Part shown: positions 1 to 26,558 of the stretch, piece after piece
Layout: each line of letters opens with the position of its first letter
How positions within the stretch are numbered: the first letter of the stretch is position 1
Source: Mytilus edulis
Taxonomy: Eukaryota
Direction: 5' to 3'
Length of the DNA: 64,000 nt
Assembly: GCF_963676685.1 (NCBI RefSeq)
Contig: NC_092356.1
Coordinates: 49,662,001-49,726,000, forward strand
The notes under the pieces: generated by a model
Told to the model about the DNA's origin: nothing
Seen by the model: only the letters and a program-made list of their open reading frames with translations
Database searches by the model: none
Translations under genes and position numbers: made by a program

Positions 1-897
1 GATGTGTGAACAAAACAAACAGCCATTTAAAGGTAAAAATATCAAAAATATGTCCACAGCAGTCAACCTTGTATTATAATTATATCTCTATAAATACAAA
101 CAAATAGGTAACAAAGATTCACAAAAAGGCATATAGGCAAAGCACATTTATTTAGCAAAAATGACAAACAAGAATACAAAAATGTATAATAGCACAATAA
201 CACGATGACGAGATGTATAAGTACAGAGCCATGTCATATATGCATCAAAGAAACACAAAAAGACTTGAAGGCAAAGCACATTAGCAAAAATGAAAGATAG
301 GAATTCAAAAATTAATATCACCAAAAAACAGACTAAACAGCAAAAGCAATATTCATAAAGACAAATGACAGAATGTTATAATACGTTTTTAAGATGATAA
401 ACAACGTCATTACTATATTATATTATACTTAGATCATCGTATATTATTTGTGAAGTTGATAGGGAATATTTATTAACAAGGTCTTGGTAGGAGCCGATGA
501 AATCTTTTGGAAAAAAAGACGAAACGTTTAGCATACTCCTGGTTCATCAATTTCTGCTCAGACACTGGGGACGTTTTACAAAGTCTGAGTAGCAGCTGCA
601 TGCTCTTGAATACCGAATAAGTTGGGAAAAGTTTATCCCATATGCAAGTTATCATATCACTTTTAAAGCTTGCCAGGTGTAACACATTCGTGTAGAATTT
701 TGAAAACCATCTGGATTCACATTGTATTGGTAAATGCATTACGATGTCGCTCTCGTCGTGCCAGTTCTTTTTTTATTTTTTATATATATATAAACAGCCA
801 TAAACATTATAAAGGAGTTGGTGAGTATAATATTCACTCCTGATTCTCTCATTTTTCAAAATTGCAAACAAAAGAGAAAAACAATTATAATAGATAT

Positions 898-1300
898 AAG
901 AAGATGTGGTATCAGTGCCAATGAGACAACTCTCCATCCAAGTCACAATTTGTAAAAGTAAACCATTATAGGTCAAAGTACTGTTTTTAACACGGAGCCT
1001 TGGCTCACTCCAAACAACAAACTATTAAGGGCTCCAAAATTACTAGTGTAAAACCATTCAAACGGTAAAAATCAACGGTCTAATCTATATAAATAACGAG
1101 AAACAAGAAACACTGATGAACCACATTAACAAACGACACTTATTGAACATCAGATTTCTGACTGAGGACAGGTGCAAATAAATGCATCTGGTTAAAACGT
1201 TTTAATAGGTACCAACCTACACCTTTAGCTGAAACAATAGTGTTACTTCAAAACAATAGAAAGACACAACTATCATTTCAAATGGCTTTACTCAATCAAA
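898..1300 (+). repeat. Abundant interspersed repeat (head agatgtggtatga(t/g)tgccaatgagacaactctcca); other copies at ~49001, ~49872, 50742-51135 and, inverted, ~33780-34040 and ~40170-40410
   Basis: Long direct match between 898-1300 and 50742-51135. Confidence 0.85.
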
Positions 1301-2351
1301 ACGAACGAATATATTTGATGATTGATTCAATATAAATGCAAATTAAATAGAAGAAGGCGTGAATAAATAAAGGCAACAGTAGCTTTTCGCTGTGTGATGA
1401 AAAACAATAATAAAAAAAACAATAACCTTACAAAAGGCCGCCATAAACAATCATATACTATACTCAACCGACCCCGTGATATAAGATGCTGACATTCTAT
1501 AGAATATAAGAATATGTTATCAGTTGATGTATATATAGATGTACAAAGTGAAGATTCACGATGACAGCACGAAATCGCGATTCATGTACATGTTACACGA
1601 AAATAAATATCCATACATTAGGGTCAAATATAACAAAGGAGATGTGGTATGATTGCTAATGAAACAACTCTTCACAAGATACCAAGCTGTTTACCAAAGG
1701 GCTTTCGTTCGTACTCTTTATGTCACACATATTTATGTATGTATGGTATCAGGAACAATTGCTCTATCAAATATTTTATCACAATGTTTCAAGTTTAAAT
1801 ACATTGTCCATACTTTCCCAAACGGTTCATGGCTTGACCTTTGTTGTCGTATCAAGATGCGCCGAGTGCAGCATTTTATTTAACTTACCTTGAAGGTTGG
1901 TAAATTTGTAAATGTCTGTCTGTCTGTCTGTCNNNNNNNNNNNNNNNNNNNNNNNNNNNNNNNNNNNNNNNNNNNNNNNNNNNNNNNNNNNNNNNNNNNN
2001 NNNNNNNNNNNNNNNNNNNNNNNNNNNNNNNNNNNNNNNNNNNNNNNNNNNNNNNNNNNNNNNNNNNNNNNNNNNNNNNNNNNNNNNNNNNNNNNNNNNN
2101 NNNNNNNNNNNNNNNNNNNNNNNNNNNNNNNNNNNNNNNNNNNNNNNNNNNNNNNNNNNNNNNNNNNNNNNNNNNNNNNNNNNNNNNNNNNNNNNNNNNN
2201 NNNNNNNNNNNNNNNNNNNNNNNNNNNNNNNNNNNNNNNNNNNNNNNNNNNNNNNNNNNNNNNNNNNNNNNNNNNNNNNNNNNNNNNNNNNNNNNNNNNN
2301 NNNNNNNNNNNNNNNNNNNNNNNNNNNNNNNNNNNNNNNNNNNNNNNNNNN

Positions 2352-3973
2352 TGGGGAATGTGTCAAAGCGACAACAACCTTATCATAGAGCAGACAACAG
2401 CCGAAGGCCACCAATGGGTCTTCAATATAGCAAGAAACTCCCGTACGCGAGGCGTCCTTCAGCTGGCCCCTTAAAAAATATGTTTACTAGTATAGTGATA
2501 ATGGACGTCATACTAAACTCCAAATCATACACAAGAAACTAAAATTTAAAATCATACAAGATTAACAAAGGCCAGAGGCTCCTGACTTGGGACAGGCGCA
2601 AAATTGCGGCGGGGTTAAACATGTTTATGAGATCTTAACCCTCATCTATACCTCTAGCCAATGTAGAAAAGTAAACGCATAACAATACGCACATTAAAAT
2701 TCAATTCAAGAGAAGTCCGAGTCAGATGTCAGAGGATGAAATAAAAGAAAATAAACAAAATGACAATAATACATAAATAACAAAAAAGACTACTAGCAGT
2801 TAACTGACATGCCAGCTCCAGAACTCAATTAAACTGATTGAAAGATTATGTCTTCATCATATGAATATAAGGCACAATCCCTCCCGTTAGGGGTTTAGTA
2901 TCATACTATCATAAAATATATAAGAAGAACATAACCCGTGTCATGCCAACAACTGTTTTTTTTAAATAAATGTGTTTAGTTCCGATGCAAAGACCCTATA
3001 AATGAATCAATATTAAAGCCAAAATATGCAATCTTTAATGACCTGACAACAGTATCGTAACTATATCCCTTCTTAATAAGTCTGTTTAAAGGTTTTGTAA
3101 GGTTTTGAGGTAAATACTGACATCTTTGTGCTTTGTAAAGAATATTACCATAAAAGATTGGATGTGAAATACCTGAACGTATAAGATGTCTGCATGTTGA
3201 GTTATATTTACGAATTATTTCCTTATACCGATGATAAAATGTAGTAAATGTTTTGACTAGTTTGTGAGATCGAAAACCCTGGTGTAATAATTTTTCAGTA
3301 ATACATAAATTTCTCTCGTTAAAATCTAATAAGTTGTTACAAACACGAGCGAATCGTACAAGTTGAGATATATAAACACCATAAGATGGTGACAAGGGAA
3401 CGTCACCATCTAAAAATGGATAATTAACGATAGGGAATGAAAAATCATCACTTTTATCATAAATTTTTGTATTAAACTTCCCGTTAATGTTATAGACATC
3501 AAGATCCAGGAAAGGGCAGTGGTCATTGTTAGTATTAGCTTTATTTAAAGTAAGTTCAATAGGATAAATTTCTTTAGTAAACATACTGAAGTCGTCATTA
3601 TTAAGAGCCAATGTATCATCCAAATATTTAAAAGTATTGTTAAATTTTTGTATCAAATGTTGTTTCGATGGGTCTTTGCTAATTTTAGTCATAAATTATA
3701 ACTCATAACAATACAAAAACAGGTCCGCAATAAGTGGTGCACAGTTAGTCCCCATTGGAATTCCAATAACTTGACGATATACGGAATCTCCAAAGCGAAC
3801 AAAGATGTTATCAAGTAAAAATTCAAGCGCATATATAGTATCAAAGCATTGACATAGTTCTTTTGTTTGTTGCTACTAAAAAATGAACTAAAGAGTTTGA
3901 ACATATGTACTCGCATTCTGACTTTTTAAATGCCTAGTTAATTAGGGATGTGATTTTTTTCTTAATGAGAATA
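2352..3973 (-). mobile_element. Penelope-like retroelement fragment: RT C-terminal half plus 3' non-coding tail, bounded by gaps
   Basis: Minus strand reads GIPMGTNCAPLIADLFLYCYE, then an in-frame TAA (3696-3698), then ORF 2976-3692 with FKYLDD, PFLDL and YDKSDDFSFPIVNYPFL..VPLSPSYGVYISQLVRFARVC. The tail 2352-2975 recurs inverted at ~34337-34975 and partly at ~62950-63172. Confidence 0.85.
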
Positions 3974-4239
3974 NNNNNNNNNNNNNNNNNNNNNNNNNNN
4001 NNNNNNNNNNNNNNNNNNNNNNNNNNNNNNNNNNNNNNNNNNNNNNNNNNNNNNNNNNNNNNNNNNNNNNNNNNNNNNNNNNNNNNNNNNNNNNNNNNNN
4101 NNNNNNNNNNNNNNNNNNNNNNNNNNNNNNNNNNNNNNNNNNNNNNNNNNNNNNNNNNNNNNNNNNNNNNNNNNNNNNNNNNNNNNNNNNNNNNNNNNNN
4201 NNNNNNNNNNNNNNNNNNNNNNNNNNNNCAAAAGGGAAA

Positions 4240-4306
4240 ATGTCGATATCGGGTGAAGAAGAAAACTACATGCGTAAAAAGACAAATCCAGGAACTACTC
4301 CTAAAG
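4240..4306 (+). other. Mini-exon copy 1 (MSISGEEENYMRKKTNPGTTPK-G), internally deleted paralog of HEPN-gene coding exon 1
   Basis: 67 bp from ATG to AAAG|gtaag, phase 1; matches MLSGEEENYMR and KKTN of exon 11805-12000. Confidence 0.75.
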
Positions 4307-5289
4307 GTAAGAACATTTTAAACTGAGGTATTCAATGCACACCTAGCTGTACATTATTCAGATAAAAGCACAGTAAGACAAAGAAATTTTACCTATGTCA
4401 TGTGTTTTGAATCTTTATAAACTAATTATAGAAAGAAAGACAAAAAGGAAAGTTTATGAAGAGAGAATTGAAAATTAAATTTTACTTTCTTTGAGACTAC
4501 ACAAAAGTCACATAATAGATTTAATTAACTGACCTAATTACAATTGGTTCATTCATGCGATGACCTCCAACTATTATCAAGGAAAATAACCATTTTGTAA
4601 ATATCAACTTTCATAATACTAATTAAAGTGACAGATCTATTTTAAAATTTTGTGTTTTCTAAGTCTTGGTGGTGATGACCTCATTTTGGAACAAACATCA
4701 TATTGGTGCTATTTTTGAAGATAGATGCAGGATTGGGCCTTGTTTAAATGAAAAATGAAATTTTGAATTTCCCCCCGCAAATTTTGGACAAATTTTTCTA
4801 TTCTTTGACCACATTCATTCACTGTCAGAAATAAATGCTAATCAAATATTTAATCCCAATCCAAATTCAGAAACGTTTCAAGCTTTAATACAGTGTCCAT
4901 ACTTTCCGAAACGGTTCATGCCGTGACCTCTGTGGTCGTATCAAGATGCGCCCAGTGCAGCATTTTATTGAAATTACCTTGAAGTTTGATATTTTTGTAA
5001 TTTTGTTTTGTTTTATATGAGTTATTTCTTACTATTCACAGTTTGTGTGTATGTTTGTATTTATGTATGTATTTACTGATATTTTTTTTGTCAGAAACAA
5101 ATGATCTATTGAATATTTTATCACAATATTTCAAGCTTAAATACATTGTCCATCCTTTCCCAAACGGTTCATGGCTTGACCTTTGTGGTCGTGTCAAGAT
5201 GCGCTCAGTGCAGCTTTTTATTCAACTTACCTTGAAGGTTGGTAAATTAGTAAATACCTACTAATCTTTTTATTTTTTAAAAAGGGAAA

Positions 5290-5356
5290 ATGTCGATGTC
5301 GGGTGAAGAAGAAAACTACATGCGTAAAAAGACAAATCCAGGAACTACTCCTAAAG
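5290..5356 (+). other. Mini-exon copy 2 (MSMSGEEENYMRKKTNPGTTPK-G)
   Basis: Preceded by tactaat, a T-tract and aag|ggaaaATG; followed by gtaag. Confidence 0.75.
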
Positions 5357-6831
5357 GTAAGAAAATTTTAAACCGTACAATATGATGTGGTAGTCAATGC
5401 ACAACTAGCTGTACGTTATTCAGATAAAATCACAGTTAGACAAAGAAAGTTTACCTATGTCATGTGTTAGCATCTTTATAAACTAATAATAGAAAGAAAG
5501 AAAAAAAATGGAAAGTTTATAAGAGAGAAATTGAAAATTAAATTTTACTTTCTTTGAGACTACACAAAAGTCATATAATAGATTTAATTAACTGACTTAA
5601 TTACAATAAGTTCATTCATGCGATGACCTCCAACTATTATCAAGGAAAATAACCATTTTGTAAATATTAACTTTCATAATACTAATTAAAGTGAAAGATC
5701 TATCTTAAAATTTTGTGTTTTCTAAGTCTTGTTGGTGATGACCTCATTTTGGAATACATCATATTGGTGCTATTTTTGAAGAAAGATGCAGGATTGGGCC
5801 TTGTTTAAATGAAAAATGAAATTTTGAATTTTTTCCCGCGAATTTTGGACAAATTTTTCTTTTCTTTGACCACACTCATTCTCTGTCAGAAATAAATGCT
5901 AATCAAATATTTAATCCCAATCCAAATTCAGAAATGTTTAAAGCTTTAATACAGTGTCCATACTTTCCGAAATGGTTCATGGCTTGACCTCTGTGGTCGT
6001 ATCAAGATGCGCCCAGTGCAGCATTTTATTGAAATTACCTTGAAGTTTGATGTTTTTGTAAATACTTTTTTGTCTATTATTTCTTGTGTTTTACATTAAA
6101 AGTTTTTATGTATATTTCTTTTATTAACCAATACGTGTAACAATGTACGAATGTGGTTTTTTTAAAATTTTGCAAGGCGTGTAACTGTTTACCAAAGCGT
6201 GTTTGTTCGTACTATTTATAAAAATAATGCCGTATAATAGATTTAATTGACTGACTTAATTACAATTAATTCATTCATTATCAAGAAAAAAATACATTTT
6301 TGATATCAACATTCATAATACTAATTTAAGTGACAGATTTATCATAAAATTTTGTGTTTCCTAAGTCTTGTTGGCCATGACCTTATTTTGTAGCAAACAT
6401 CATATTAGTGCCATTTTTTGAAGATAGATGCAGGATTGGGCCTTGTTTAAATGGAAAATGATATTTTGAATTTTCCCCTTGATTTTTTTACAATTTTTTC
6501 TATTCTTTGACTACATTCGTTGTCTGTCAGAANNNNNNNNNNNNNNNNNNNNNNNNNNNNNNNNNNNNNNNNNNNNNNNNNNNNNNNNNNNNNNNNNNNN
6601 NNNNNNNNNNNNNNNNNNNNNNNNNNNNNNNNNNNNNNNNNNNNNNNNNNNNNNNNNNNNNNNNNNNNNNNNNNNNNNNNNNNNNNNNNNNNNNNNNNNN
6701 NNNNNNNNNNNNNNNNNNNNNNNNNNNNNNNNNNNNNNNNNNNNNNNNNNNNNNNNNNNNNNNNNNNNNNNNNNNNNNNNNNNNNNNNNNNNNNNNNNNN
6801 NNNNNNNNNNNNNNNNNNNNNAAAAGGGAAA

Positions 6832-6898
6832 ATGTCGATATCGGGTGAAGAAGAAAACTACATGCGTAAAAAGACAAATCCAGGAACTACTCCTAAAG
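6832..6898 (+). other. Mini-exon copy 3 (same as copy 1; possibly allelic)
   Basis: Same 67 bp with gtaag donor. Confidence 0.7.
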
Positions 6899-7881
6899 GT
6901 AAGAACATTTTAAACTGAGGTAGTCAATGCACACCTAGCTGTACATTATTCAGATAAAAGCACAGTAAGACAAAGAAATTTTACCTATGTCATGTGTTTT
7001 GAATCTTTATAAACTAATTATAGAAAGAAAGACAAAAAGGAAAGTTTATGAAGAGAGAATTGAAAATTAAATTTTACTTTCTTTGAGACTACACAAAAGT
7101 CACATAATAGATTTAATTAACTGACCTAATTACAATTGGTTCATTCATGCGATGACCTCCAACTATTATCAAGGAAAATAACCATTTTGTAAATATCAAC
7201 TTTCATAATACTTATTAAAGTGACAGATCTATTTTAAAATTTTGTGTTTTCTAAGTCTTGGTGGTGATGACCTCATTTTGGAACAAACATCATATTGGTG
7301 CTATTTTTGAAGATAGATGCAGGATTGGGCCTTGTTTAAATGAAAAATGAAATTTTGAATTTCCCCCCGCAAATTTTGGACAAATTTTTCTATTCTTTGA
7401 CCACATTCATTCACTGTCAGAAATAAATGCTAATCAAATATTTAATCCCAATCCAAGTTCAGAAACGTTTCAAGCTTTAATACAGTGTCCATACTTTCCG
7501 AAACGGTTCATGCCTTGACCTCTGTGGTCGTATCAAGATGCGCCCAGTGCAGCATTTTATTGAAATTACCTTGAAGTTTGATATTTTTGTAATTTTGTTT
7601 TGTTTTATATGAGTTATTTCTTACTATTCACAGTTTGTGTGTATGTTTATATTTATTTATGTATTTACTGATATTTTTTTTGTCAGAAACAAATGATCTA
7701 TTGAATATTTTATCACAATATTTCAAGCTTAAATACATTGTCCATCCTTTCCCAAACGGTTCATGGCTTGACCTTTGTGGTCGTGTCAAGATGCGCTCAG
7801 TGCAGCTTTTTATTCAACTTACCTTGAAGGTTGGTAAATTAGTAAATACCTACTAATCTTTTTATTTTTTAAAAAGGGAAA

Positions 7882-7948
7882 ATGTCGATGTCGGGTGAAG
7901 AAGAAAACTACATGCGTAAAAAGACAAATCCAGGAACTACTCCTAAAG
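7882..7948 (+). other. Mini-exon copy 4 (same as copy 2), donor site disrupted by MULE insertion
   Basis: The exon ends ctcctaaag directly before the MULE TIR; the array resumes at 9539 with ataag instead of gtaag. Confidence 0.7.
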
Positions 7949-9529
7949 GGTTCATTCTGGCTATTCCTACATTATGAATTTTATAGGTAAAATACTAAAA
8001 TTTTATGTAGGAATAGCCAGAATGTTTATTTAAACAATGGGATTATGTAGGAAAATGTTGTAACAACACTAGACTAATTAATCAAGGTAAATCCAGGTAA
8101 ATCTTGTGGAAAATAAAGAAAAAGAATAGTTTATATTACAATATTTTATTTAATAATTTCATAGCACATATTTTGTAAATAATATTAACAAAACAAAATG
8201 AATTCATTGGCATAATGTTATTTGCAAGAAATTGCAATTATTTAAGTGCACATATTAATTTATGCAAGTAAATAATACCAATTGAAACATAAATTAAATT
8301 TTAATGATTATTCTTTGAATCACAGCACTAAATTTGATTTATACCTAACAGAGCACCAAACATACACAAAATTGACATTAAGCATACACTCACACAGTGA
8401 TGCATTGCACTGTCTTATAAATTGAATATACAAGAGACTACAAAGTCGTAATCGATGTACAGGACATAAAAAGCAACATGCATCTCCATACTCGACTGCA
8501 GTAAGCTCACAGTTTTGTAACCTTGTTTCAGTGTTTGCAGTCTGTAATCTATTGCCTTTTATTTTCTTTTTCTTGTAACACGTTTCCCACCGGCTCTGTA
8601 CTGGATAAGTTTGAGAACATTGAAGGCTTCTTTTTGTCTCAACAACTTGGTCATGCATGCTGAAGATAATTTTGTGAGGTGCCTCAACTAACTTCTTTAG
8701 TTTACTATGTCAGCCGTCTAGATGGTTTGTTGTTCTATGACCTTCTGTTGCGTAGTTAGTTGTTTTCTACCCAGGAGTAGGTTTCAAAGTCTGTAAAAAT
8801 AATGGTTAGGGTTGGTGTTGCTAATATCTGCATCATTGATGTCCCCCAGTGCGTTAAATCAAACATCTTCAACTGTATTGGGTGGTAAAAATGGTAGAAC
8901 TGCAGCTCTTCGAACAAGTTGGTGAATGTCGCCCTTTTCACTGTATTCAGTCTTTAAACCATGCTTCTGTGCAATCCTCCAGATACACTGAGTGTTGTGG
9001 AAAAAGGACCCTTTTCTATTGATTCTTGGAAAGATTGAGGCGACTGTGAAAAAGCTATTTTGTAGTCGAGGAACATCGCGGCTATTTGTAGTAGAATGTT
9101 GAAGGAAATTTTAAACCAGTTCAAAGTTAATAGCTTGGCTTAATCTATTAGGCCAATTTGTATTAATAATAATTATGTACTGTTAGCGTTACTTTTGATA
9201 ATATATTCATTTTAAAAAATCGTATTTTATTAAAAAAAAAAATGGCTTTTACTAATTTTTTATTTCTAGAAATTCTACAGTAATTGAGAAAAAAAAACAC
9301 TTAATTTTAATATTTGATGCATGTTTGCAAACAAACAAATTCCATTTTTTACATATACAAATACTTTTTATTTAATTTTCACATTTAAATTTACCTTTGA
9401 TCCAATTAGACATTCATGACTAAAACAATATATCTTTCAATAACAACATCTATTGTTCTTCCACTAATCCCCCATGTAGGAATAGCCAGAATAGTAAAAT
9501 ACAAAATGTAGGAATAGCCAGAAGACACC
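7949..9529 (-). mobile_element. Mutator-like (MULE) DNA transposon, defective deletion derivative
   Basis: TIRs ggttcattctggctattcctacatt / aatgtaggaatagccagaagacacc; 9-bp TSD ctcctaaag (7940-7948, 9530-9538). Minus-strand relic ~8620-9080 reads GSFFHNTQCIWRIAQKHGL..VRRAAVLPFLP..VEDV*FNAL and RTTNHLDG*HSKLK, matching the MULE CxxH and RTxNxxEGWH motifs with stops. Confidence 0.92.
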
Positions 9530-11804
9530 CTCCTAAAGATAAGAAAATTTTAAACCGTACAATATGATGTGGTAGTCAATGCACAACTAGCTGTACGTTA
9601 TTCAGATAAAATCACAGTTAGGCAAAGAAAGTTTACCTATGTCATGTGTTAGCATCTTTATAAACTAATCATAGAAAGAAAGAAAAAAAGGAAAGTTTAT
9701 AAGAGAGAAATTGAAAATTAAATTTTACTTTCTTTGAGACTACACAAAAGTCACATAATAGATTTAATTAACTGACTTAATTACAATTAGTTAATTCATG
9801 CGATGACCTCCAACTGTTATCAAGGAAAATAACCATTTTGTAAATATTAACTTTCATAATACTAATTAAAGTGAAAGATCTATCTTAAAATTTTGTGTTT
9901 TCTAAGTCTTGTTGGTGATGACCTCATTTTGGAATACATCATATTGGTGCTATTTTTGAAGAAAGATGCAGGATTGGGCCTTGTTTAAATGAAAAATGAA
10001 ATTTTGAATTTTTCCCCGCGAATTTTGGACAAATTTTTCTATTCTTTGACCACACTCATTCTCTGTCAGAAATAAATGCTAATCAAAAATTTAATCCCAA
10101 TCCAAATTCAGAAATGTTTAAAGCTTTAATACAGTGTCCATACTTTCCGAAATGGTTCATGGCTTGACCTCTGTGGTCGTATCAAGATGCGCCCAGTGCA
10201 GCATTTTATTGAAATTACCTTGAAGTTTGATGTTTTTGTAAATACTTTTTTGTCTATTATTTCTTGTGTTTTACATTAAAAGTTTTTATGTATATTTCTT
10301 TTATTAACCAATACGTGTAACTATGTACGAATGTGTTTTTTTTTAAATTTTGCAAGGCGTGTAACTGTTTACCAAAGCGTGCTTGTTCGTACTATTTATA
10401 AAAATAATGCCGTATAATAGATTTAATTGACTGACTTAATTACAATTAATTCATTCATTATCAAGAAAAAAATACATTTTTGATATCAACATTCATAATA
10501 CTAATTTAAGTGACAGATTTATCATAAAATTTTGTGTTTCCTAAGTCTTGTTGGCGATGACCTTATTTTGTAGCAAACATCATATTAGTGCCATTTTTTG
10601 AAGATAGATGCAGGATTGGGCCTTGTTTAAATGGAAAATGATATTTTGAATTTTCCCCTTGATTTTTTTACAAATTTTTCTATTCTTTGACTACATTCGT
10701 TGTCTGTCAGAANNNNNNNNNNNNNNNNNNNNNNNNNNNNNNNNNNNNNNNNNNNNNNNNNNNNNNNNNNNNNNNNNNNNNNNNNNNNNNNNNNNNNNNN
10801 NNNNNNNNNNNNNNNNNNNNNNNNNNNNNNNNNNNNNNNNNNNNNNNNNNNNNNNNNNNNNNNNNNNNNNNNNNNNNNNNNNNNNNNNNNNNNNNNNNNN
10901 NNNNNNNNNNNNNNNNNNNNNNNNNNNNNNNNNNNNNNNNNNNNNNNNNNNNNNNNNNNNNNNNNNNNNNNNNNNNNNNNNNNNNNNNNNNNNNNNNNNN
11001 NNNNNNNNNNNNNNNNNNNNNNNNNNNNNNNNNNNNNNNNNNNNNNNNNNNNNNNNNNNNNNNNNNNNNNNNNNNNNNNNNNNNNNNNNNNNNNNNNNNN
11101 NNNNNNNNNTTGAGCCCGCTCCCTCTTTTTGAAAGTCCGTTATTTTTTTGTTTCTTATTAAATGCCATGATTTTCGCGTTTCTGTATACTATAAAGAGGT
11201 TTGTAAAGGGTTATTTACGTGAAACGTGTTTTGCCTTTTTTATTTGTTATGCAGCCGTGTAATAGGTTCGTAATCCGCCGTGTTTCGTGAAATCCGTAAA
11301 AAGATCAACGTGCAAGGAATTGTTCGTTCATCGTGAAATGGCAATTGTATTTCGCGTTCTACCGATCAAATATCCCCCTTTTTTTACTCCCCTCTATGAA
11401 CATACGTATATTATAAATAAAGTGTATTTGCTATTAACTTTCAATTCCAAGTTTCTTCTCCACGGCGATCACTGGTATAAAATATTTGTATAAAGAGTCT
11501 CTATATATTTTAGGAGTATAATCATAGTACATGTAAACATGCAGAATAACGCGAAAATAATTGTCCTGTCCCCGAGAAACTACTGACGAAAATTATGTTT
11601 AAAAGTTAAAAACCGGAAGTCTTATCTTTGACTTAAAAGACGGTCTGATGACGAAAACAATATCTGGACGCCTTTACATAGTGTCTATACATTTATGTAG
11701 GACACAGAGGTATGATGAATACTTTATTGCGAAAGGTAGAGAAGCGAAACATAAAATGAGATTTTCTCGTTTAATAGTATAGATATATTTGTTTTAAAGG
11801 CAAC

Positions 11805-12000
11805 ATGTTATCGGGAGAAGAAGAAAACTACATGAGACTGTTCATGCTGCTTGATATTTGTAAAAAGGCAGTGAAAATATATTTTGATGAAGAGTTTGAT
11901 CCAAACCATTTGAATCAGACAATAAAGAAAGCAGGGCGCAAATTACTACAGCTGAAAAAGACAAATGTTCTTTCAGAGACACAGTGGATAATATTGCAAG
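11805..12000 (+). CDS. HEPN-STAND-ANK coding exon 1
   Basis: tttgttttaaag|gcaacATG ... CAAG|gtaggc; 196 bp, phase 1; MLSGEEENYMRL..AVKIYFDEEFDP..QW. Confidence 0.85.
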
Positions 12001-15000
12001 GTAGGCTTACTCATAATATTTTTCAATTTCTGTACAAAAATATACTGGCATTCAGAAACAAGGGCGTTTATATATATTAATGAACTATTCATTGTTGATG
12101 TTATTTTGGTTTGTAGAATCTGTCACCCTCGTCTCTTATCACCGGAAGAAAAACCTTATCGGAAATAAAAATTATAATAAATTTTTAACTCGAATCTAAG
12201 CTTTCTGATTTTCGAAAATCATACTGTAATCGTTTTTTTTTTATCTCAGAAATGAGAAGCAGAGAGTGATCAGTTTAAGTCAACCTAAAAAACCTAAGGC
12301 CCTAAGGCCAAAGATGACGACCACTCTGAAATCCCCCATAAAACTAAATATAGATGATATAATCCAATTAAGAATATATGATGTATGACACATTACTAGA
12401 CCAATAGAAAGACTGGACTGCAAAATTACATGACCAAATAAGGATGGGCCAGCGAGGAATTCTCCCCACCCAAAATATAGATAATATAATCCGATTAAAA
12501 ACGTATGACGTATGTCACATTTTTGAACCAATGAATAATCAGTTGCCAAATAAGGATGTTTATCAACCATAAATCAATCCATTTAAGGACATATTTGTTT
12601 TATCATATGATGAAATGCTTTATTATGAAATTAAATATATTTGACCAACTAAATCTATTGAATATTGAATAGTGGTAAAAGGAGCTGGAAATTAGGTAAA
12701 CCAGGTAAACCAGTGGAAAGAGAGCTATCATTTGATTTGTGTTCATTCTCAAAGGAGACTAGAATGGTTCAAACATCAGTAGATAATTCAAGAATTAAGG
12801 CAGCACTAAGGAAATCCATTTCATGGTCCATCTTTCATGCTTAAGCTTTATGGTTATCAGATGGGAACAAACTACCTGCAATGGCTGCCTTTTAATCTCT
12901 TTTTCACTAGCAAGCTTCATTTATTGCAATGAGACGACATTCATTGGACACTTATCAAAGAGCAATAAGGAAGCTAAATTGAGGTCAAACTCCCCTTGCG
13001 GCTTTAGACTAACCACTTTTTAAAGTAGCATCACTAATACAATGGAAGTGGCCTCTGATGAATAAGTGGGCTTGGAGATAGAATTTGTGGATGGACAAGT
13101 GTTTAGTATATAACCATGTTACATAATCCGGTACAGTAGATTCATTATTGAGGACTTCTCATTGTACATAATAATGTAGAGCACATCAAGTTACTGCATG
13201 CACACTTTACCGTTTATTGTCAAACACTTACTGCTGGTACATATATTCCTTGATTAATGGTAAGGTGATTTAAGAATTTGAAAGGTAGTGCTTGGAAAGT
13301 TCTAAAAATCTTTTCATTTTATATTAAAGTATTTTACCATGCGATTTGAATTAACAGTATTGGTATTCGTAAGGTATATGTATGTAATACTACCCTTTTT
13401 GTATATATAGAAGCTCTTGCAAATATTATTCCTTGTTTTTTTGCTTTGAATCACACTATAAACTGTGGGACCATTCATTAACGTGATATGCTTTATTTCT
13501 CGACATCAAATCAAGAAATTCAGATAGCATTCCTTGACTGAAATTGTGTGTTTTACCAAACAGAGAAAAAAATTCTGGCTTTTGACAAAACCAACGAAAA
13601 AAATAAAGCATGTTTTAAAACAGATGGTCGTGATGTTGGATTAAAGCGAAATCCAGGAGCACCTGGATTTCAGTTCATTGATTATGACATGCTCAAGAAA
13701 CATCAAATTATAGAAAGACTTAACATTCTGCAATGCCTTCACTAGTTGTGACATAGTGTCAATTATTTTTCAGAAGGATAAGAAATCAGAACCGGACCCA
13801 ATGTCCATTTATTATGAATCACGAGAAGCATTTTTTCAGATTTCAAAAATTCAGATAAAGTTGAAATATTAAACGTGGAAAAAAAATAAAGCAAGGCATG
13901 TTGTTCTTCTTTGTGGTCGGTCTAGTTTATTTAATAAACTGAGTGAATATAGAAGAAATCATACACACAGAAGACAAAAACAATTGACAATATTTCTCCG
14001 ACGCGACATGCACTACTTTGACACAGGAAACGCTGCGATGTAATGTTAAGAACGAATCCACTGTACTATACGAAATTATAATGATGTTCATGCAAATGCT
14101 TGAAAGCAGCATTATGTAACCGCTCACCAGACTGTGAGAGGGAAACTGTGCTAAATTTGATTTCCTACATTTGAATCTTATTTGATTATCAATAATTTTA
14201 ATGTGTTTCTTAAAGTAGTTATGCCAAATAATTATTTTTGATGCACCCGTTTTTATTTTCGCCCCCATCCAAATATAATACTTGTCTTATATTTTTGTAA
14301 GGTTTAATATATGTTTTTTATCGATACATTTTCGGAAGTCATGTAAATATTTACTAAAACTGAAAAAAAAATACAGCTTGTCAGAAACGCCATTATGTTA
14401 GGTATCGGCAATATGCATTTCATAGTTTATGTCTTCTCTTACATATATATAAAAGATTCGTTGGTATTGGTATCCAAATAAATGTTTTATCATTCATGGA
14501 GATATTTGTGTATAAAATTTACGCCTCATTATTAATGTACAAATTATTGTCGGCATTTTTCACGGCGCTATTATGAATTTTGCCGCCATTTTGAAAGCAT
14601 GTTCCCTGGTATTATTAATACACTGTAAACCTGTGTCTTCATCTCATGATCAGCTTCACAAATCTGTTATCTTTCTATTCATTATTGATAGAGAATATAT
14701 ATAAATTCCCTCAAACTTTGACACGTTGTACTTTGCCATTTTGAATTTAGACGCCATTTCGATTAATTTTATATTTCATGAAGTTTAAAACATATTTATT
14801 GATATGTCTTACATGTATTTCCTTAGTTTTGTGTTATCTTCTGGACTCTTACATATTGGTAGACTTTATCAAATGAGTGATGTTGTAATCTCTGTTCCTT
14901 ATGTCAGCCATCTTTGATTTGGCGGCCATTTTCAACTTCAACTACTGTTTATAAAGGCAACAGTAGTATACCGCTGTTGGAATTCATAAATCGAGAAAGA

Positions 15001-15317
15001 AACAAAAAATCAAGGTAACAGACTAAAACTTAGGGAAACACAGCAAATATAAGAGGAGAACTGATACACAACAGAAACACAACATTACAAACACAGAAAC
15101 GAACTATAATATAACAATGTCCATTTTCGTGACTTGGTACAGGAAATTTAAAAACAAAATGGTTTGTTGAACCTGGTTTTGTGGCATGCCAAACCTCCCG
15201 CTTTAATGGCAATGTAAAAAATAACATTCAAATGACACCATGATATGACTACAAAAAAATAAATGGGAGAACATAAAGGACAGAGAAACATACAAAAAAC
15301 AGCTAACAAAAGGTGCC

Positions 15318-16317
15318 AGGTTTAAAATTTGATACGCAAGACGCGCGTTTCGTCAACACAAGATTAACCCGAAAAGCTCTGATGAAAAAAGTTCCAAAGC
15401 AAAAACAAGTACAAAGTTGAAGAGCATTGAGGACCAAAAGTTCCTATTCGGCTAGGGTTTTCTGCCTGGGATAGAATTGAGGACCAAAAGTTCCTATACG
15501 GTTAGGGATTTCTGCCTGGGATGAGAACATCCTTTTTATTTAGAATATTTCATACTTTTGCAGACAGAATTTTTTTTATAAAATGACTATATAATTGATA
15601 TAAATGATAAAACCGGTGGCTGACTTTAAAATAAAAATGTATAGATGAATAACCTAAACCAGCATATAAAAATTCACAGCCACGTTAGCCAAATCGATAA
15701 ACTCACAAGTTTAAGTGACGTCACATTGAATTTCTAAACATTTCCCAACAATAGGATAGAATTAGGAATTAGGATTAGATTAGTTTTGTAAGGTTGATAT
15801 AGTTATCAAAGGTACCAGGATTATAATTTTGTACGCCAGACGCGCGTTTCGTCTACATCGTCTACATCGCATCAGTGACGTTCATATCAAAATATTTGTA
15901 AAGCCGAACAAGTAAAAAGTTGAAGAGCATTGAGGATCCAAAATTCCAAAAAGTTGTGCACAATACATCTAAGGTTATCTATGCCTGGGATAAGAAAATC
16001 CTTAGTTTTTCGAAAAATTCAAAGTTTTTTTAAAAATGACCACATTATTGATATTCATGTCAACACCGAAATGTTGACTAGTGGGTTAGTGGTACACTCG
16101 GGGACGAAACGTCCACCAGGAGTGGCATCGACCCAGTGGTGTAAATAGTTATCAAAGGTACCAGGATTATAATTTAGTACGCCAAGCGAGGGTTTCGTCT
16201 ACATAAGACTCATCAGTGACGCTCAATATTTATAAAGCAAAACAAGTACAAAGTTGAAGAGCATTGAGGATCCAAAATTCCAAAACGCTGTGCCAAATAC
16301 ATCTAAGGTAATCTATG
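15318..16317 (-). mobile_element. Cluster of retrozyme-like repeats: ~1.5 tandem units with 346-bp period (15801 and 16147) plus a diverged relative at ~15318-15630; hammerhead motifs degenerate
   Basis: agttatcaaaggtaccaggattataattt recurs at 15801 and 16147, each followed by a mutated reverse-complement hammerhead core. Confidence 0.8.
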
Positions 16318-16586
16318 TTATCGCTTTTTTGTTCGTTTTTCCTTTAATCTTTTTTTGTGATAATTTTTCATATCATGCCACTCGCTTGAGATGGAAAATT
16401 ATCGCTAGAAACTAAGAAAGCACAAGGCGTTGCTAACGAAATTGACATGAAATTGAAAACGTCGTCATAGGTAAAATAGCGATAAACAGATTATCATTGG
16501 TCATCTCAACTCGATTGCCTTTTTCGCTTTCGCCGTCCCGGCTCATGCGAGAAAATCAATCTCGTTGAGATGATCAACGATAATCT
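16318..16586. mobile_element. Non-autonomous fold-back element (short IR bracket plus ~100-bp hairpin)
   Basis: ttatcgct (16318) ... agcgataa (16478-16485); hairpin agattatcattggtcatctcaac ... gttgagatgatcaacgataatct (16488-16586). Confidence 0.7.
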
Positions 16587-16990
16587 ATAAATATAACATT
16601 AATTAAAGGGGCACTAGCTACGAGATATATAAAAAAAATAATATCATCCTTATTTGCTCTACAATAATGAAATGCAAATAGTGAAATGATAATTAACATT
16701 TAGCAGCCAGTATGGTTCAATTTTGTTGAATTAAGCTAATAGACAGAAAAAATATTACAGTCATTTCTTATAATTTAATTCTAAATAAACCGTAGAAAAC
16801 CATGAAAAAACGTTGAAGACGTCACGGTCACATGACTAAATTATGGCTATGGGCTCATAACAAAATAACGTCAGCCAATCAGAATACGCGTTACATCCAA
16901 AACTAAATTATATAAAAATAAAAATAAAATTTCTCATTTATATGTAACAATAATTAGTTAAATATTACATGGAAAGGAGACCAAAATTTT

Positions 16991-17948
16991 TCACACACTT
17001 GGACTATTTTTCTCTGCAATATAATGTCCAAGAACTTGGTATTTCTTTATTCTATTCTTTAACCCAACCATATTTGGTTTTATTTCATTTAATTTACATT
17101 TGTATATATAATTCTTTGTAATTATGACTAACAGATTCAGTAATAAACTTTCATGTTTGCAACCAAGAAACACATTCTCTTTGTTAAGAACAAAGTTTAC
17201 AAAAAAAAGATTTACTACATTTGGAAAAGACTGCCACAAATATCACCATTATCAGGCTTATCCAAATCTTACTTTTAACAGTTCTCTTTAAGGCATTTTT
17301 TCATATATCGAGGGATTCTTGAAATCAGACCATGATATTTGATAAAATTGTTGATTTTTACTCTTTCTTGAAAATGCTCAAATTTATAAAAATTCATATT
17401 TTCTTTATTATTTAAGGTCACTTACTGACTGCACATCTCCTTGTTTCCATTGAATATAATATGGGAAATCATCCAAAGAAGAAAAGTTCAAAATATCTAA
17501 TGATAAAATGTCACTGACAGAATTCTCAGTATTAGGTTTTGCTATAGAAAAGCATAGTAAAACAGCCTTCCAGAAAGGATTTTTACATCTTTTAGAAATC
17601 TCAATCAGCTTTTCTTTCTGTAGATGTAAAACCCTTTCACCCCATACTTTGTGAGGTCTGCCAGTAACAACTTCTGCCAGCCACCAAGTGGGTTTGACAT
17701 CAGTCTTTTTATCCAACTAATTTTTAAATAGATGTTAAAGGAATGAAGATGTACCATATTAAGTCCACCTTGTGAAAAATCACAAAGTGTGTTACGCTTA
17801 ATTCTGTCTGGTTTGATCCTTGGATACATGGAAAAGGTCCACAGGTATATGTAATATCCAATTTGGACAGTTTTTGAGGATGTATACCAAACGTTTCGCA
17901 TCCATATTGGAATAGGACATATATCTTTCCATTGAGGCAACACATCAT
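16991..17948 (-). mobile_element. Degenerate LINE (L1/Tx1-like) ORF2 3' relic
   Basis: Frameshifted pieces IKRNTLCDFSQGGLNMVHLHSFNIYLKISWIKRL, NPFWKAVL and LLNLLVIITKNYIYKCK resemble the post-RT region of L1/Tx1 ORF2. Confidence 0.75.
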
Positions 17949-20900: not shown

Positions 20901-21027
20901 TCCTTGAATCTAGGCGAACTGATCTGTATGTGTGTTAGTAGCGATATCAGAAAAAAACCAGATGTATCGTTAGATAGCTAATGTTTTCATTGACAACATT
21001 AGATAACTTGCAATTATTGAATTTCAG

Positions 21028-21248
21028 GAAACAAGTTAGATTCATCAGATTTTGACATCCCATTGATGATCTGTCTTCTACGAAATTTGGCTGATCTACC
21101 TATCAGTGATTTAATGCCACTTGAATCTCAGAGGAAACCAACTGACGAATTGACGAGAATAAAATTCTACAGAAATGCCATCGTCAATGGAAACAGAAGT
21201 AATCTTTCAGATGAACGTTTTCTAACAAATTGGAATACTATTTGTAAG
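21028..21248 (+). CDS. HEPN-STAND-ANK coding exon 2 (DZIP3-like HEPN core)
   Basis: tttcag|GA AAC AAG ... TGT AAG|gttagt; GNKLDSSDFDIPLMICLLRNL...RIKFYRNAIVNG...WNTICK. Confidence 0.9.
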
Positions 21249-23317
21249 GTTAGTTGGTTTTCAATTTAAACGAACGCTTGTACATGCTTTATACAATACT
21301 AATCATTGTATTATAAATGCAAAATTGTTAAAATGTATTGTAAAAAAAATTTCAATTTTTCGTATACCTTTGGATTGAGGCGTGGAAAAATAATTAATTT
21401 AATGGAAGTATTTATTTTCACCTTCTTCATTCTCTTAACAGGCCAGAGTTATTCCATTGGTTTTTCAATTGAATTGTCAAATATCTTTCATGTTTGGGCC
21501 ATAAAAACCGCCTAAATAGTATGGGGTTTTGTCATTGTTGAAGGCCGTATGGTTGCATATGATTTCTTTACAAATTCACTGCATTCGTACTTTCACTTAC
21601 AGTTGTCTCAATTATGCCACATCTTCGTATCTCTATACATGATATTTTATTCATAATCGTTTAAAAAATTATTTAAACGTTGCATCAATAATAGCCGGTA
21701 GATAAAATTAAGTATCTTGTAGTAAAATTTAAAGATAGTGTCATTTAAGGTTCAAAAAGTCTTATTGTAGCCTGAGGAGAGAATGCAGGAAGTAAAAAAA
21801 TAATGCTCTCATATATATTTTGAAGGGTTAAAAGCAATTCTTTAGTACATGCCAATAAAAGCTTAATTATAACCGCTAGAAACACTTATGTTCAGTATGT
21901 AACATTAAGGGGGATTTTTCGGGAGTGAACACCATATTAGATCTTCCGATTCTGGCTGGAAATTTTGAAGGTCCAAATATTAGGAAACGTTTTGATAGCA
22001 AAATAAAACTTACTGGACAAACAAAATGACAGGATCTTAAGGACATATAATTTATCCTTACCCTGAGGTCCAGGTAAATTAACCCCTAAAGTAAAAATAA
22101 GGTATGTTTGTTTTTCTCAATATTGTATGCCGTATAGACTTTACTCTGGTCGCCAGTTGTCTTATTGGCAATGCTACTAAATCTTCATATTTTTATCCTT
22201 TAATGTGTCTAACTTATCAGACAGCAAGAAGAGAAATGGTGCTGTTTCATTTTCCAGACTTGAACGAAAATAATGCACATCAAAATTATTTTTGTATTTT
22301 TTACAATGCCTAAACTCTAACAGATTCTAACATTTAATTATATCTAATGTACATTTTTGTTGTGAAAAAACACAGCCTTTATGAATGTCAACACCTGATT
22401 AAATTATGAAGGACCTAAGCAGGGTTCAGAAGTTTCTCATAAATGGGAACTGTCTCCGTCTTTCGTTATTATACCCAATATTGGGTATCAATTAACTATG
22501 TTTAGAGTTCATAATAATTAAGTTCATGACTCAAGCATTCTTAAAAATGGCAATAATTTAAACATTAAGACCAAAATTAAGTTGAGAATGGTATTTAATA
22601 ATAATTGCTTTTCAAAATGTTACTTTTTGAAGTCTATTAATTTTATCCAGGTGATATTTCATTTATAGTGTGTTTGGGTCAAGATGTTGGAATTTACATA
22701 AATCTAACTACCATGGCAGACAATACCTTGAAATTATGTTTTTATCACTGAGTATTGATATCGGTTTTGGGGCATAACCACTGTACATGTACATAGGAAT
22801 AACACACATTTATTCTTTCCAAACCTGTTAAACCAAATCCCTTTTTCAAATGAAATGATCTTTCTCTCATTAAATGTGAAAACGCGGAAATAAATTATGT
22901 GACACTACCTATATGAAATATTTATGGTTTCATATGAAAACTTAATACCCGCTGAAATACTTATAGTATTGAAAGTTTGAGATTCTAAGTCAATTCGATG
23001 GGCATGAATTACACAGCAACTACTGCTAAATTTCCACATGCACTACAACATTATGAATTCACGAGAAGAGTTACTTTAATTATATGTGCGATTTGATTGT
23101 CAATGTGATCATCATCCACCAGAAACAAATATACGTGGATTTAAGCAACTATAAGTTACTGTATAGCCTTCAACAACATAGGAAATAATTAGAGTACAAG
23201 CGATAGCTTCACTCTCAAATGTCTCATTTCACTCACTAATGAAGTTCGAGACATCTGTGATTACTTTTATTGTTAACTCTTTAATAGTTATCAAAGGTAC
23301 CAGGATTATAATTTAGT

Positions 23318-23361
23318 ACGCCAGACGCGCGTTTCGTCTACATAAGACTCATCAGTGACAC
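23318..23361 (-). ncRNA. Minimal type I hammerhead ribozyme inside retrozyme fragment 23283-23409
   Basis: Minus strand reads GUGUCA-CUGAUGA-GUCU(UAUGU)AGAC-GAAA-CGCGCG-UC^UGGCGU: full core, stems I and II, palindromic stem III. Confidence 0.88.
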
Positions 23362-23617: not shown

Positions 23618-23825
23618 TCAATACAAGGGCTATCAGATGAGTTATTTGAAGAATGTGAGAGCTTACATGTCACAGGTCTGGATCTTCTAAACAAAGATAT
23701 AAAAATCTGCATCCAAAATGCATTTAAAGAATTGTCAGAATTCAATACGTTGCATGAGAAACTTAAGAAAGAATGGGAAATACAAAAAGAAAGGAAAACC
23801 AATCCAATTCCTCCAAATCTAAGGG
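23618..23825 (+). CDS. HEPN-STAND-ANK coding exon 3 (end of HEPN plus coiled-coil linker); not in the ORF track
   Basis: ttttaag|TCA ATA CAA ... CTA AGG G|gtaagt; open frame SIQGLSDELFEECESL...HEKLKKEWEIQKERKTNPIPPNLR. Confidence 0.85.
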
Positions 23826-24784
23826 GTAAGTTTAGTTGTTTTTAAAATTTGAATTGTGGTTTTCTCATAGAACAGTTTTTTATTCCCAATGTCTTTATCA
23901 AAAGGACTGATATTGTACCCAATGTATGAGTATTTACGATACCAGATGATTTCATGACTTCCTTCTTATCGACTGAACTGTCTTTTTTTTTTTTTTAAAG
24001 ACTTTTATTATTCAAAACAAGATGAAGATTTTTACATTTTTTACCCGAACAAAATCTAGGAAGAACAGAGCAAAGAAACAAATTTAACATATTTAGCTTA
24101 TTCTACCTATTAAGACATTTACACAGCTTATAGTATAGACACTTTTTTTTTTTATCAAACAACGTTAGCGCCCAATAATTAAAAAAAATCATTGTAAGAC
24201 GTTACAAAAGTTGTTCATACTTTCGGAAAAAGTCATGAAAGTAGCCAATTAAAATAATTAAATTAATGTACAACGATATACTATCTAAATCGACGTATGT
24301 CTCCGTATTACATGAGATACCAGGATAGAAATATTGCATTTGCGCAAAATGCACTTTTCTTCTACAAAAGACTATTTAGTGACGCTCGATCGAATCAATA
24401 AAGTTAAAAAGGCCAAAAAAAGAACGAAGTTGAAGTGCATTGAGGACTTCAAATTCCTTAAAGTTTTGCAAAATACTGTCAAGGTTATCTCTTCCTGAGG
24501 TAAGATATACTTTTGTAAACTAAAGAAGTTGCAAAAGTGGTCTGTTTTTAGGTGGAAGGTCAAGTATGTCCGAGGTTCTAATCATGTGGTACTGAGGAAA
24601 GAACTAGCAATTTCTTAGATTTCAGATTATTTTCTTTAGACTAAATATAAGACGAAGTATAATGATATTTTAATTTTATTAGGATTAATTAAGATATTGT
24701 ATTATGCATTGTAGAATAATTGTATACACACTCCTTAATGGTCGTATCTGAAAAAGTTACAATCGTTGAAATCTTCTTTTATAG

Positions 24785-26558
24785 TAAAAATTGATAAGAA
24801 GTTGAAAAGTTGGAAAGAAGAAACTGACAATTTTTTTGTAAGTACTAAAGGATCTAAGGCAGTCATTGAATCGATTAAAGAAGAACCATGTGTAGCTGTT
24901 ACCGGAAGTTTTGGAATTGGCAAAACTGCAGTCATCCGTAACGTAGCTTTATTAATGCGTTCAAATGGTTATATTGTCGTTCCTGTGACAGATCCTTCGG
25001 AAATAAAAAAATACAAACATCCTTTAGAGAAAAATTTATTTGTAGTCGATAACTTTTGCGGTATATGTGATTTAGTGGAGGAAGAACTTGAAGCCTGGAA
25101 CAATTGCGGTGTTGAGTTTGATGAAAAATGTAAACTATTAGTATCGTGCAAACTTCAGGTTTACAGAGCAATACGACATGAATCACTGAATAACATTACT
25201 TTTCATGAATGTAATTTGATTTCAAATGATATATGTCTGTCTCTAGATGAAAGACAATCAATCGCTAGAAAATATGATATCAACATACTTGAAATTATTG
25301 ACTATATCGAATATTTTAACTGTTTTCCCCTTTTGTGTAATAATTTCACTATTGAAAAAATTGATAACGCACAAGATTTTTTTAAACACCCGTTTGAAGT
25401 GTTCGAAACACAGTTTGAAATGTTACAGGCTCTAGGTGCCAATGGTAAAGTTTGTGCATTAATGATCTTATTAATGTTTCCGAAGCTATGATAACGGGAG
25501 ATTTAAATTGGGACGTGAAATATATAATAGCAAATACAAGCAAAGCCTGTAAATTAGGTACGGAGGATTCATGTATCACAATACACAAAGAACTTGATAA
25601 CTTGATCGATACATATGTAGTGAAGAAAGACGGAGTTTATCATGCTCTAAATGAGAGGATATTCAATATAGTACTCCATTATTTTGGTCACGATATGACA
25701 GTACCACTAATAAGTTATGCTTGCCCAACCTTTATAAGAGAAAGGTTTCAGCTATCAAATCCGTTAACGAATAAGGAAGATTACAAGATTTTACGATGTG
25801 CGGATGGGATAGAAAATTCAAATGAGTTATTGTCGTGTAAAACATGGGACAAAATTGGTCTCAATGCAGTTGTTTTATGTAGTATCGAAGATCGTAAACC
25901 TTATGTTAATCGAATGCTTTCGGATTGGTCGAAAGGATTTGTGAATGATACTATTAGAAATCCAAATTTCTATCACTTTTTTTTCTTTCAATTCTTAATT
26001 GGTAAAGGTGAGATTGAAATCGGTCAGTTATTGAAAAAAAAAGACATAATTGATGGCTCGACACCTTTGATTGCAATCTGTGCGCTTATAGACTTTCATT
26101 TTGCAGACAAATGTTACGATATTTATTTGAAATGGTTAATTGACAATGGGTGTCCCATAAATGGAATCAATAAGAAAGGTCAGACGTCCATTTTTTACGC
26201 TGCAATACATGGTAAGAGTAAATTGGTAAATATTCTTATCAATCATAAAGCCGATACTAATATATGCACAACTGAAGGACATTCACCATTATTTATAGCC
26301 TGTCTGAACGGTTATTGTAAAATAGCAGATATTGTACTCATTTCCGGAGCTAACTGCAATGTGAGAACAACTGAAGGAAATACACCATTGCACGCTGCTT
26401 GTTTAAATGGACATATTTCTATTGTGAAAGAATTACTTAAACGCAATGCAGATTTAAGTATAAGAAATAACGTCTGTGTGACAGCACTCGATCTTGCTCG
26501 TCTTAATGGGCATCATGATATTGTGCAAGAGATAATTAAACACTCTTATACAAATTAA
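24785..26558 (+). CDS. HEPN-STAND-ANK terminal exon (nSTAND3-type NTPase, helical region, ankyrins), split by a frameshift
   Basis: tcttcttttatag|TA AAA ATT matches phase 1; ORFs 24766-25491 and 25452-26558 overlap in different frames. Confidence 0.88.

What the first reader, a model, noticed from the sequence alone, without database searches (positions are those of the whole stretch)
4240..7948. Array of phase-compatible, internally deleted copies of HEPN exon 1: possible alternative N-termini or captured exon
Seen: four 67-bp units read ATG-MS(I/M)SGEEENYMR-KKTN-PGTTPK-G|gtaag. Compared with exon 1 they lack exactly 39 codons between MR and KKTN, yet keep the ATG, the frame and the same phase-1 donor. 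Where the flank is sequenced they also have a branchpoint-like tactaat, a T-tract and an AG. They could splice in frame to exon 2 at 21028. Inference: either a cassette array making N-terminally trimmed isoforms, or an exon fragment captured and amplified by a rolling-circle-type repeat.
Basis: partly seen in the sequence, partly recalled or inferred. Interest (0 to 1): 0.75.

Follow-up and report, generated by a model that had tools for sequence, protein, structure and literature searches.

The report
Tandem chimeric mini-exons in mussel gene
A shortened leftover of an immune-type gene's exon has joined a piece of a repeat element and been copied in tandem, and these 72-base copies are spliced to each other, likely adding a variable number of 24-amino-acid spacers inside a predicted fused mussel protein, which is an ordinary kind of exon recycling.

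Summary
The four units are real (ATG at 4240, 5290, 6832, 7882) and lack exactly 117 nt of the HEPN exon at 11800-12000. The reading needs correcting. Each is a 72-nt phase-1/1 exon. Only its 5' part is HEPN-derived; the PGTTPK end and GT donor come from a dispersed repeat. Three keep a GT donor; the fourth is split by a 1.58-kb TIR element. The chimera occurs only here, so it is a local duplication, not dispersed capture. An RNA contig joins a unit's donor to a unit's acceptor. NCBI models XP_071145704.1/705.1 (Mytilus edulis) use two or one unit as internal exons spliced into 'exon 1', not exon 2, behind a HEPN-like module 25-31 kb upstream. So they likely lengthen a linker rather than trim an N-terminus. 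The upstream join rests on annotation alone, a circular RNA is not excluded, four copies could be two haplotypes of two, and the last exon is frameshifted before the ankyrins. Known processes: tandem exon duplication, repeat exonization, phase-1 shuffling.

The parts
4235..4306 (+). mini-exon u1, 72 nt, phase 1-1, MSIS type, donor GTAAGA; not used in either NCBI model (identical to u3, so reads cannot tell them apart)
5285..5356 (+). mini-exon u2, 72 nt, MSMS type; branch-like TACTAAT, T-tract and AG upstream; donor GTAAGA
   Evidence: RNA joint 5356|5285; first unit of NCBI X1
6827..6898 (+). mini-exon u3, identical to u1; second unit of NCBI X1 by genomic order
7877..7948 (+). mini-exon u4, identical to u2, donor destroyed
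7949..9529 (.). 1581-nt TIR DNA transposon relic inserted at the exon-intron border of u4, 9-nt target duplication CTCCTAAAG; young dispersed family (8 other copies at 96-99% over the first 160-162 nt); Mutator-like is a recalled label, Pfam found nothing in two fragments
5334..5469 (+). terminal ~135 nt of a dispersed ~1.5-1.7 kb non-coding repeat; supplies codons N-P-G-T-T-P-K, the donor and the intron start (also 4284-4406, 6876-6998, and 9530-9651 behind the TIR element)
4230..6532 (+). first A+B block of the local tandem duplication (A 1050 nt; A and B flanks differ at 50 of 751 aligned sites)
6822..10712 (+). second A+B block, period 2592; A1/A2 differ at 6 of 1050, B1/B2 at 16 of 1174 sites, plus the TIR element
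   Evidence: RNA contig of run X16 covers 11802-11998 with 14 differences
21028..21248 (+). HEPN_DZIP3 exon (PF18738, E 6e-12); R-N motif reads RNAIVN, without the His of Rx4-6H
23618..23825 (+). next coding exon; joined to the previous one in an RNA contig of run X17 (about 9% diverged)
24784..26558 (+). last exon: nSTAND3 (PF20720) then ankyrin repeats in another frame; frameshift near 25450-25490, NCBI models stop at 25491

Best explanation
The units are 72-nt phase-1/1 exons that are spliced to one another, and they likely serve as optional internal cassettes that add 24 residues each to the linker of a predicted fused protein (upstream HEPN-like module, linker, HEPN_DZIP3, nSTAND3). Origin, inferred: a sister copy of the HEPN exon (MSIS-type start, with its acceptor) lost 117 nt internally and then its 3' end, joining at a 4-nt AAAT microhomology to the end of a dispersed repeat that already read AAAG|GTAA(A/G)A; the result kept frame and phase, was duplicated locally (A, B, then A+B again), and one copy was later inactivated by a TIR element. 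Shown: anatomy, repeat origin of the donor, local copy number in the assembly, unit-to-unit splicing in one RNA run. From annotation only: unit-to-11800 and the 24-kb join from the upstream module. Inferred: translation, a disordered spacer (from composition), any effect on function.
For:: run X17 holds a 102-nt contig whose joint 5352->5281 with 5 ambiguous letters equals 5356|5285, the exact donor and acceptor; 2 of 2 DNA-type runs laid show no such joint and X4 runs on into the intron (piece 5299-5384). X17 behaves as RNA: it joins 21249 to 23619 without the intron and has no depth at 11979-13697. NCBI X1 (831 aa) has MSMS unit, MSIS unit, then the 11800 exon; X2 (807 aa) has one unit; every exon from the third upstream exon to 11800-12000 is phase 1-1; 7 of 7 dispersed repeat copies read TAAAG|GTAA, 3 of 7 GTAAGA. 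loose ends: full-length sister exons exist (X4, X5...ENYM-RLCML; P0022 starts MSIS and holds LKKTNVLSETQW). Family habit: three older phase-1 linker exons upstream and 17-33-aa cassette differences among 5 NCBI isoforms of the C12 relative. Exon u1/u2 differ at 1 of 72 sites against 6.7% in flanks, binomial p 0.043, a weak hint of constraint or conversion.
Against: One RNA contig (depth 7.7, 3 differences from the window) in 1 of 2 RNA-type runs laid on the unit; X10 gave none, and raw-read run X24 had no depth in the bins 11979-13697 and 20574-21146. The contig is a closed 72-nt cycle with no entry or exit piece, so it does not show a linear mRNA. The upstream join and the unit-to-11800 join were not seen in reads here; the NCBI models may rest on the same public reads, so they are not independent. 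The models skip an intact family exon (CRVEWRL, G000:C13:49648660-49648968) that 12 of 13 relatives keep, and use a cryptic donor 6 nt past an AT-mutated one. None of the 13 relatives of the upstream module carries nSTAND3. The last exon is frameshifted before the ankyrins and the second HEPN lacks its His, so the locus may be decaying.
Confidence: 0.68

Rival explanations
1. Two separate genes: the upstream module is a truncated gene of its own, the fused model is rare read-through or mis-mapping, and the units are spliced behind a nearer untranslated exon, so that their ATGs give N-terminally extended (or, via exon 2, trimmed) HEPN-nSTAND3 proteins.
For: Relatives of the 11800 exon mostly begin there: Met within 12 residues upstream of the EENY-like motif in 73 of 83 proteins with the motif, of 97 hits (many are short ORF calls that start at Met by construction). 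Each unit keeps an ATG 5 nt past its acceptor. Unit-to-exon-2 is in frame.
Against: Both NCBI models are fused; no later exons of the upstream family were found between the CRVEWRL exon and 11800 (best E 0.11), and that exon ends in a phase-1 GTAAGA donor that needs a partner; no unit-to-exon-2 junction seen, though the table was cut.
Confidence: 0.17
2. The RNA cycle is a back-spliced 72-nt circular RNA; being 24 codons with an ATG and no stop, it would be an endless reading frame.
For: The X17 contig is exactly 72+30 nt with its first and last 30 letters the same, and was the only X17 record laid on the stretch.
Against: Two or more identical exons in a linear mRNA give the same cycle in an assembly graph; NCBI X1 is such a linear form; the self-comparison shows only direct repeats around the units, no inverted pair; 72 nt is below the usual size of single-exon circles (recalled).
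Confidence: 0.07
3. Selectively neutral debris: the exons are spliced because their signals survived, inside a decaying pseudogene, and make no working protein.
For: Frameshift in the last exon, His-less second HEPN, one unit killed by a transposon, two upstream linker donors mutated to AT. Not exclusive with the best explanation as to splicing.
Against: Unit shared with a run of another organism label with 0-4 differences over about 105 nt (X4); in-frame deletion and in-frame exon length; exon more alike than flanks (p 0.043).
Confidence: 0.25
4. Exon fragment captured and spread by a Helitron/Helentron.
For: The donor-supplying repeat has a 12-nt inverted pair and a 148-nt terminal palindrome in some copies (both exact 12-mers in 3 of 7), which resembles HINE anatomy (PMC4067079, passages); another high-copy repeat lies in each flank.
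Against: HEPN part at 5 of 5 genomic sites inside this window; only one end of the repeat is present, with no left subterminal repeat in 1-12000; none of the 7 dispersed copies carries HEPN sequence.
Confidence: 0.03

Closest known systems
Tandem exon duplication with alternative splicing (PMC9013439, abstract and outline seen)
   Same: Near-identical exons in tandem, annotated isoforms differing by one copy.
   Different: Copies are included additively, not mutually exclusively, and the duplicated exon is itself a new chimera rather than an old domain exon.
Exonization of repeat sequence (Alu-type exon creation; search listing only; otherwise recalled)
   Same: A dispersed repeat supplies a latent splice site and some codons.
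   Different: Only the donor comes from the repeat; acceptor and 5' codons come from a gene copy.
Phase-1 symmetric exon shuffling and domain grafting in lophotrochozoan immune genes (PMC8998645, passages; PMC3632108, listing)
   Same: An N-terminal module found in front of OTU, Death, RIG-I helicase or HEPN domains in other mussel proteins is here joined to HEPN-nSTAND3 through phase-1/1 exons.
   Different: This pairing was seen in no other protein of the 14 hits; the bridge is made of remnants of the downstream gene's own start exon.
Bivalve DZIP3/hRUL138-like HEPN gene expansion (PMC9646362, passages)
   Same: PF18738 domain, STAND NTPase and repeat C-terminus, at least 148 other exon matches in this genome, copy variation between individuals.
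   Different: The PF18738 domain next to the array lacks the Rx4-6H His; the upstream HEPN-like module keeps RNFLSH.

Membership tests
Tandemly duplicated cassette exons | two or more homologous exons in tandem with their own splice sites | tested here: met
   3 of 4 with GT donor, acceptor tract visible in 2 of 4
Tandemly duplicated cassette exons | splice junctions seen in RNA | tested here: met
   one unit-to-unit joint in run X17; linear versus circular not resolved
Tandemly duplicated cassette exons | alternative inclusion | tested here: inconclusive
   NCBI X1 versus X2 differ by one unit; no reads seen for both forms
Mutually exclusive exons | one and only one copy per transcript | tested here: not met
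   unit-to-unit joint; X1 holds two
Alternative first coding exons | unit ATG is the first start codon of its transcript | tested here: inconclusive
   annotation puts 339 residues upstream; no 5'-end data in the runs
Helitron/Helentron gene capture | fragment lies between both termini of the element | tested here: not met
   only one end present
Helitron/Helentron gene capture | captured fragment dispersed with the element | tested here: not met
   5 of 5 sites in this window
HINE (non-autonomous Helentron), for the donor-supplying repeat | subterminal inverted repeats plus terminal palindrome, TT/T-rich target, no coding | tested here: inconclusive
   12-nt pair exact in 3 of 7 copies, 148-nt palindrome much longer than the 5-10 bp in PMC4067079, longest open frame 103 codons in the one copy translated; no autonomous partner sought
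Mutator-like element, for 7949-9529 | long TIRs and 8-10 bp target duplication | tested here: met
   9 bp here, 8 bp in L035; right end not reached in L034
Mutator-like element, for 7949-9529 | MULE transposase domain | tested here: inconclusive
   no Pfam match for 3 fragments; resemblance is recalled
Active HEPN RNase (PF18738) | Rx4-6H motif | tested here: not met
   RNAIVN in the domain next to the array; RNFLSH present in the upstream module
Circular RNA | RNase R resistance, junction not explained by a linear tandem | not testable with these tools
   contigs only

The most novel reading that the evidence does not exclude
A gene fusion caught in the making: remnants of the downstream gene's own start exon, given a donor by a repeat and multiplied, act as splice stepping stones that graft a roving HEPN-like module onto a HEPN-STAND-ankyrin sensor, with linker length set by exon copy number and skipping and varying between mussels; at the far end, the same exon may also circularize into a 72-nt stop-free reading frame.
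Probability: 0.25. Interest if true: 0.6.

Novelty: new member of a known kind. Interest (0 to 1): 0.36.

Why it matters
It is a readable example of how new in-frame exons arise in the fast-evolving HEPN/STAND immune families of mussels: three parts of different origin, each still traceable, in a locus where every exon is phase 1-1 and so free to be skipped or shuffled. It could be used to test by long reads whether such fusions start as read-through splicing. Two of the exons are already in the public gene models, each step is a known process, and the locus may be a pseudogene, so the general weight is modest.

Tried and rejected
Laying four RNA-type runs on 6822-24000 was swamped by intronic repeats; 109 joints, 1498 loose ends and 5743 pieces were not shown, so absence of a unit-to-exon-2 or unit-to-11800 joint there means nothing. 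Depth arithmetic suggests that the X16 contig on 11802-11998 continues into exon 2 (54 letters x depth 5.48 = 296 against 0.52 x 573 = 298), an indirect hint only; its 28 upstream letters were not shown. X10 gave no contig on 5225-5560, which proves nothing. PGTTPK as the end of a paralog's exon: rejected, it is repeat sequence. Rescue of u4 by the GT at +2 of the TIR would give 73 nt, out of frame (sequence). A hidden genomic 72-bp tandem as source of the RNA cycle: the visible letters before AAAG at u1-u4 are not CCT. A 32-protein alignment for folding misaligned the N-terminal family (15-18% identity), so no structure was predicted. Four 20-30 kb paralog regions were read only in part; no SGEEENY-type unit was found in them. 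Searches of earlier findings by place, words and sequence returned nothing. Paper searches listed no paper on this locus or on HEPN mini-exon arrays; the library lacks most subscription papers and no supplements were read. The motif count left out 14 of 97 proteins without the motif.

Full report
Observation. Four units start at 4240, 5290, 6832 and 7882 and read MS(I/M)SGEEENYMRKKTNPGTTPK. Against the exon at 11800-12000 they lack 11838-11954, 117 nt or 39 codons; the 12-nt match after the gap was reached in 0.055% of 20000 resamples, and its 8-nt core in 1.7%. Three units have a GTAAGA donor. The fourth is followed by a 1581-nt element with terminal inverted repeats and a 9-nt target duplication, and the old donor behind it reads ATAAG; the element belongs to a young dispersed family. 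With the acceptor AG|GGAAAATG each exon is 72 nt, phase 1 at both ends. The array is (A+B) twice with period 2592; A1/A2 differ at 6 of 1050 and B1/B2 at 16 of 1174 sites, A against B at 50 of 751. The two blocks are close enough that they could be two haplotypes laid in tandem; I could not test this.

Origin. A genome search with unit 2 found, besides the 5 local matches, 7 sites on contigs 1, 2, 3, 6 and 14 that match only from the AATCCAGG onward. These are the end of a non-coding repeat of about 1.5-1.7 kb. All 7 read TAAAG|GTAA at the place of the donor, 3 of them GTAAGA. So the PGTTPK codons and the donor are repeat-derived; the exon and the repeat share AAAT at the junction. The HEPN part is at 5 sites in the genome, all in this window. 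Its source was likely a sister exon rather than the present one: DNA-type runs X4 and X5 hold full-length exons that match 5280-5324 and go on as RLCML, and P0022 begins MSIS and contains LKKTNVLSETQW. X4, under another organism label, also holds the chimera with its intron in at least two versions. The repeat has an inverted 12-mer pair and a long palindrome in some copies, like the HINE elements described in PMC4067079 (passages seen), but only one end is in the units, so this is not capture.

Splicing. Run X17 (same organism label as the best DNA holder, another study) is RNA by behaviour: it joins exon 21028-21248 to 23618-23825 and has no depth in the first intronic bins. On 5225-5560 it gave one contig of 102 nt, depth 7.74, with 3 differences, that goes back 72 nt with five ambiguous letters, which places the joint at 5356|5285, donor to acceptor. 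X10 gave nothing and the two DNA-type runs show no such joint. The contig is a closed cycle, so a linear tandem of like exons and a circle fit equally. The protein collection holds two NCBI models of this locus, named Mytilus edulis: XP_071145704.1 (831 aa) with an MSMS unit, an MSIS unit and then the 11800 exon, and XP_071145705.1 (807 aa) with one unit. Both join to 11800, not to exon 2, and both start at G000:C13:49635821 with a HEPN-like exon, two further exons and two linker exons. I did not see what reads these models rest on.

Context. The upstream module is a family of its own. In 12 of 13 relatives it continues into a CRVEWRL domain and then into OTU, Death, RIG-I helicase or HEPN domains, never nSTAND3. 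Here the CRVEWRL exon is intact at G000:C13:49648660-49648968 and ends in a phase-1 donor, the models skip it, and no later exon of that family was found before 11800. Three older linker exons of 60-66 nt lie upstream, two with AT in place of GT and a GT 6 nt further on. The C12 relative has five annotated isoforms differing by 17-33-aa cassettes. Downstream are HEPN_DZIP3, nSTAND3 and, after a frameshift near 25450-25490, ankyrin repeats; the second HEPN lacks the His that PMC9646362 (passages seen) reports in 194 of 202 pearl oyster domains. Relatives of the 11800 exon mostly have a Met just before the motif (73 of 83), so it is likely an ancestral first coding exon now used internally.

How it most likely works. 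A transcript from the upstream module would be spliced through none to three units into the 11800 exon; because all these exons are phase 1-1, any choice keeps frame and changes a Lys/Gly/Thr/Pro-rich spacer by 24 residues (0.68). Shown are anatomy, origin of the donor and one unit-to-unit junction; the fusion comes from annotation; translation and function are inferred. Rivals are a separate promoter using the unit ATGs (0.17), a 72-nt circle (0.07), neutral splicing in a decaying locus (0.25, partly overlapping) and rolling-circle capture (0.03).

Verdict. A real, spliced, chimeric mini-exon array, partly annotated already and built by known processes: tandem exon duplication (PMC9013439, abstract and outline), repeat exonization, and domain grafting as reported for lophotrochozoan RLRs (PMC8998645, passages). 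Six paper searches listed nothing on this locus. New member of a known kind; interest 0.36.

Noticed in passing
G000:C13:49641015-49645612 (L022, L009): Three older tandem linker exons (60-66 nt, phase 1-1, 73-78% alike with flanks); two have AT at the family donor and a GT 6 nt downstream that keeps frame.
   Followed up: partly
window 25449-26558: Ankyrin repeats are in a different frame from nSTAND3; real frameshift or assembly error not tested.
   Followed up: partly
proteins P0009-P0021: A Mytilus N-terminal module (HEPN-like, linker, unnamed CRVEWRL domain with no Pfam match) is grafted onto OTU, Death, RIG-I helicase or HEPN C-termini.
   Followed up: partly
window 57520-59707: 1.09-kb tandem duplicate at 99.5% identity in an intron of a gene that looks like alkaline phosphatase (read by eye, exons about 48590-59900); may be another haplotype artefact.
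   Followed up: no
window 4790-4970 and copies; 1749-1932: High-copy repeat (2171 first-look candidates) in each unit's flank, next to a TGTC microsatellite at 1913-1932.
   Followed up: partly
window 2976-3695 (-): 239-codon open frame in a dispersed element (93% to L004), retroelement-like by recall; no Pfam match.
   Followed up: partly
window 28043-31904: About 1.2-kb units in tandem, 75-80% alike, non-coding as far as seen.
   Followed up: no
L001-L007: Dispersed 1.5-1.7 kb repeat with TTAA-like ends, a 12-nt inverted pair and a 148-nt terminal palindrome; class not settled.
   Followed up: partly
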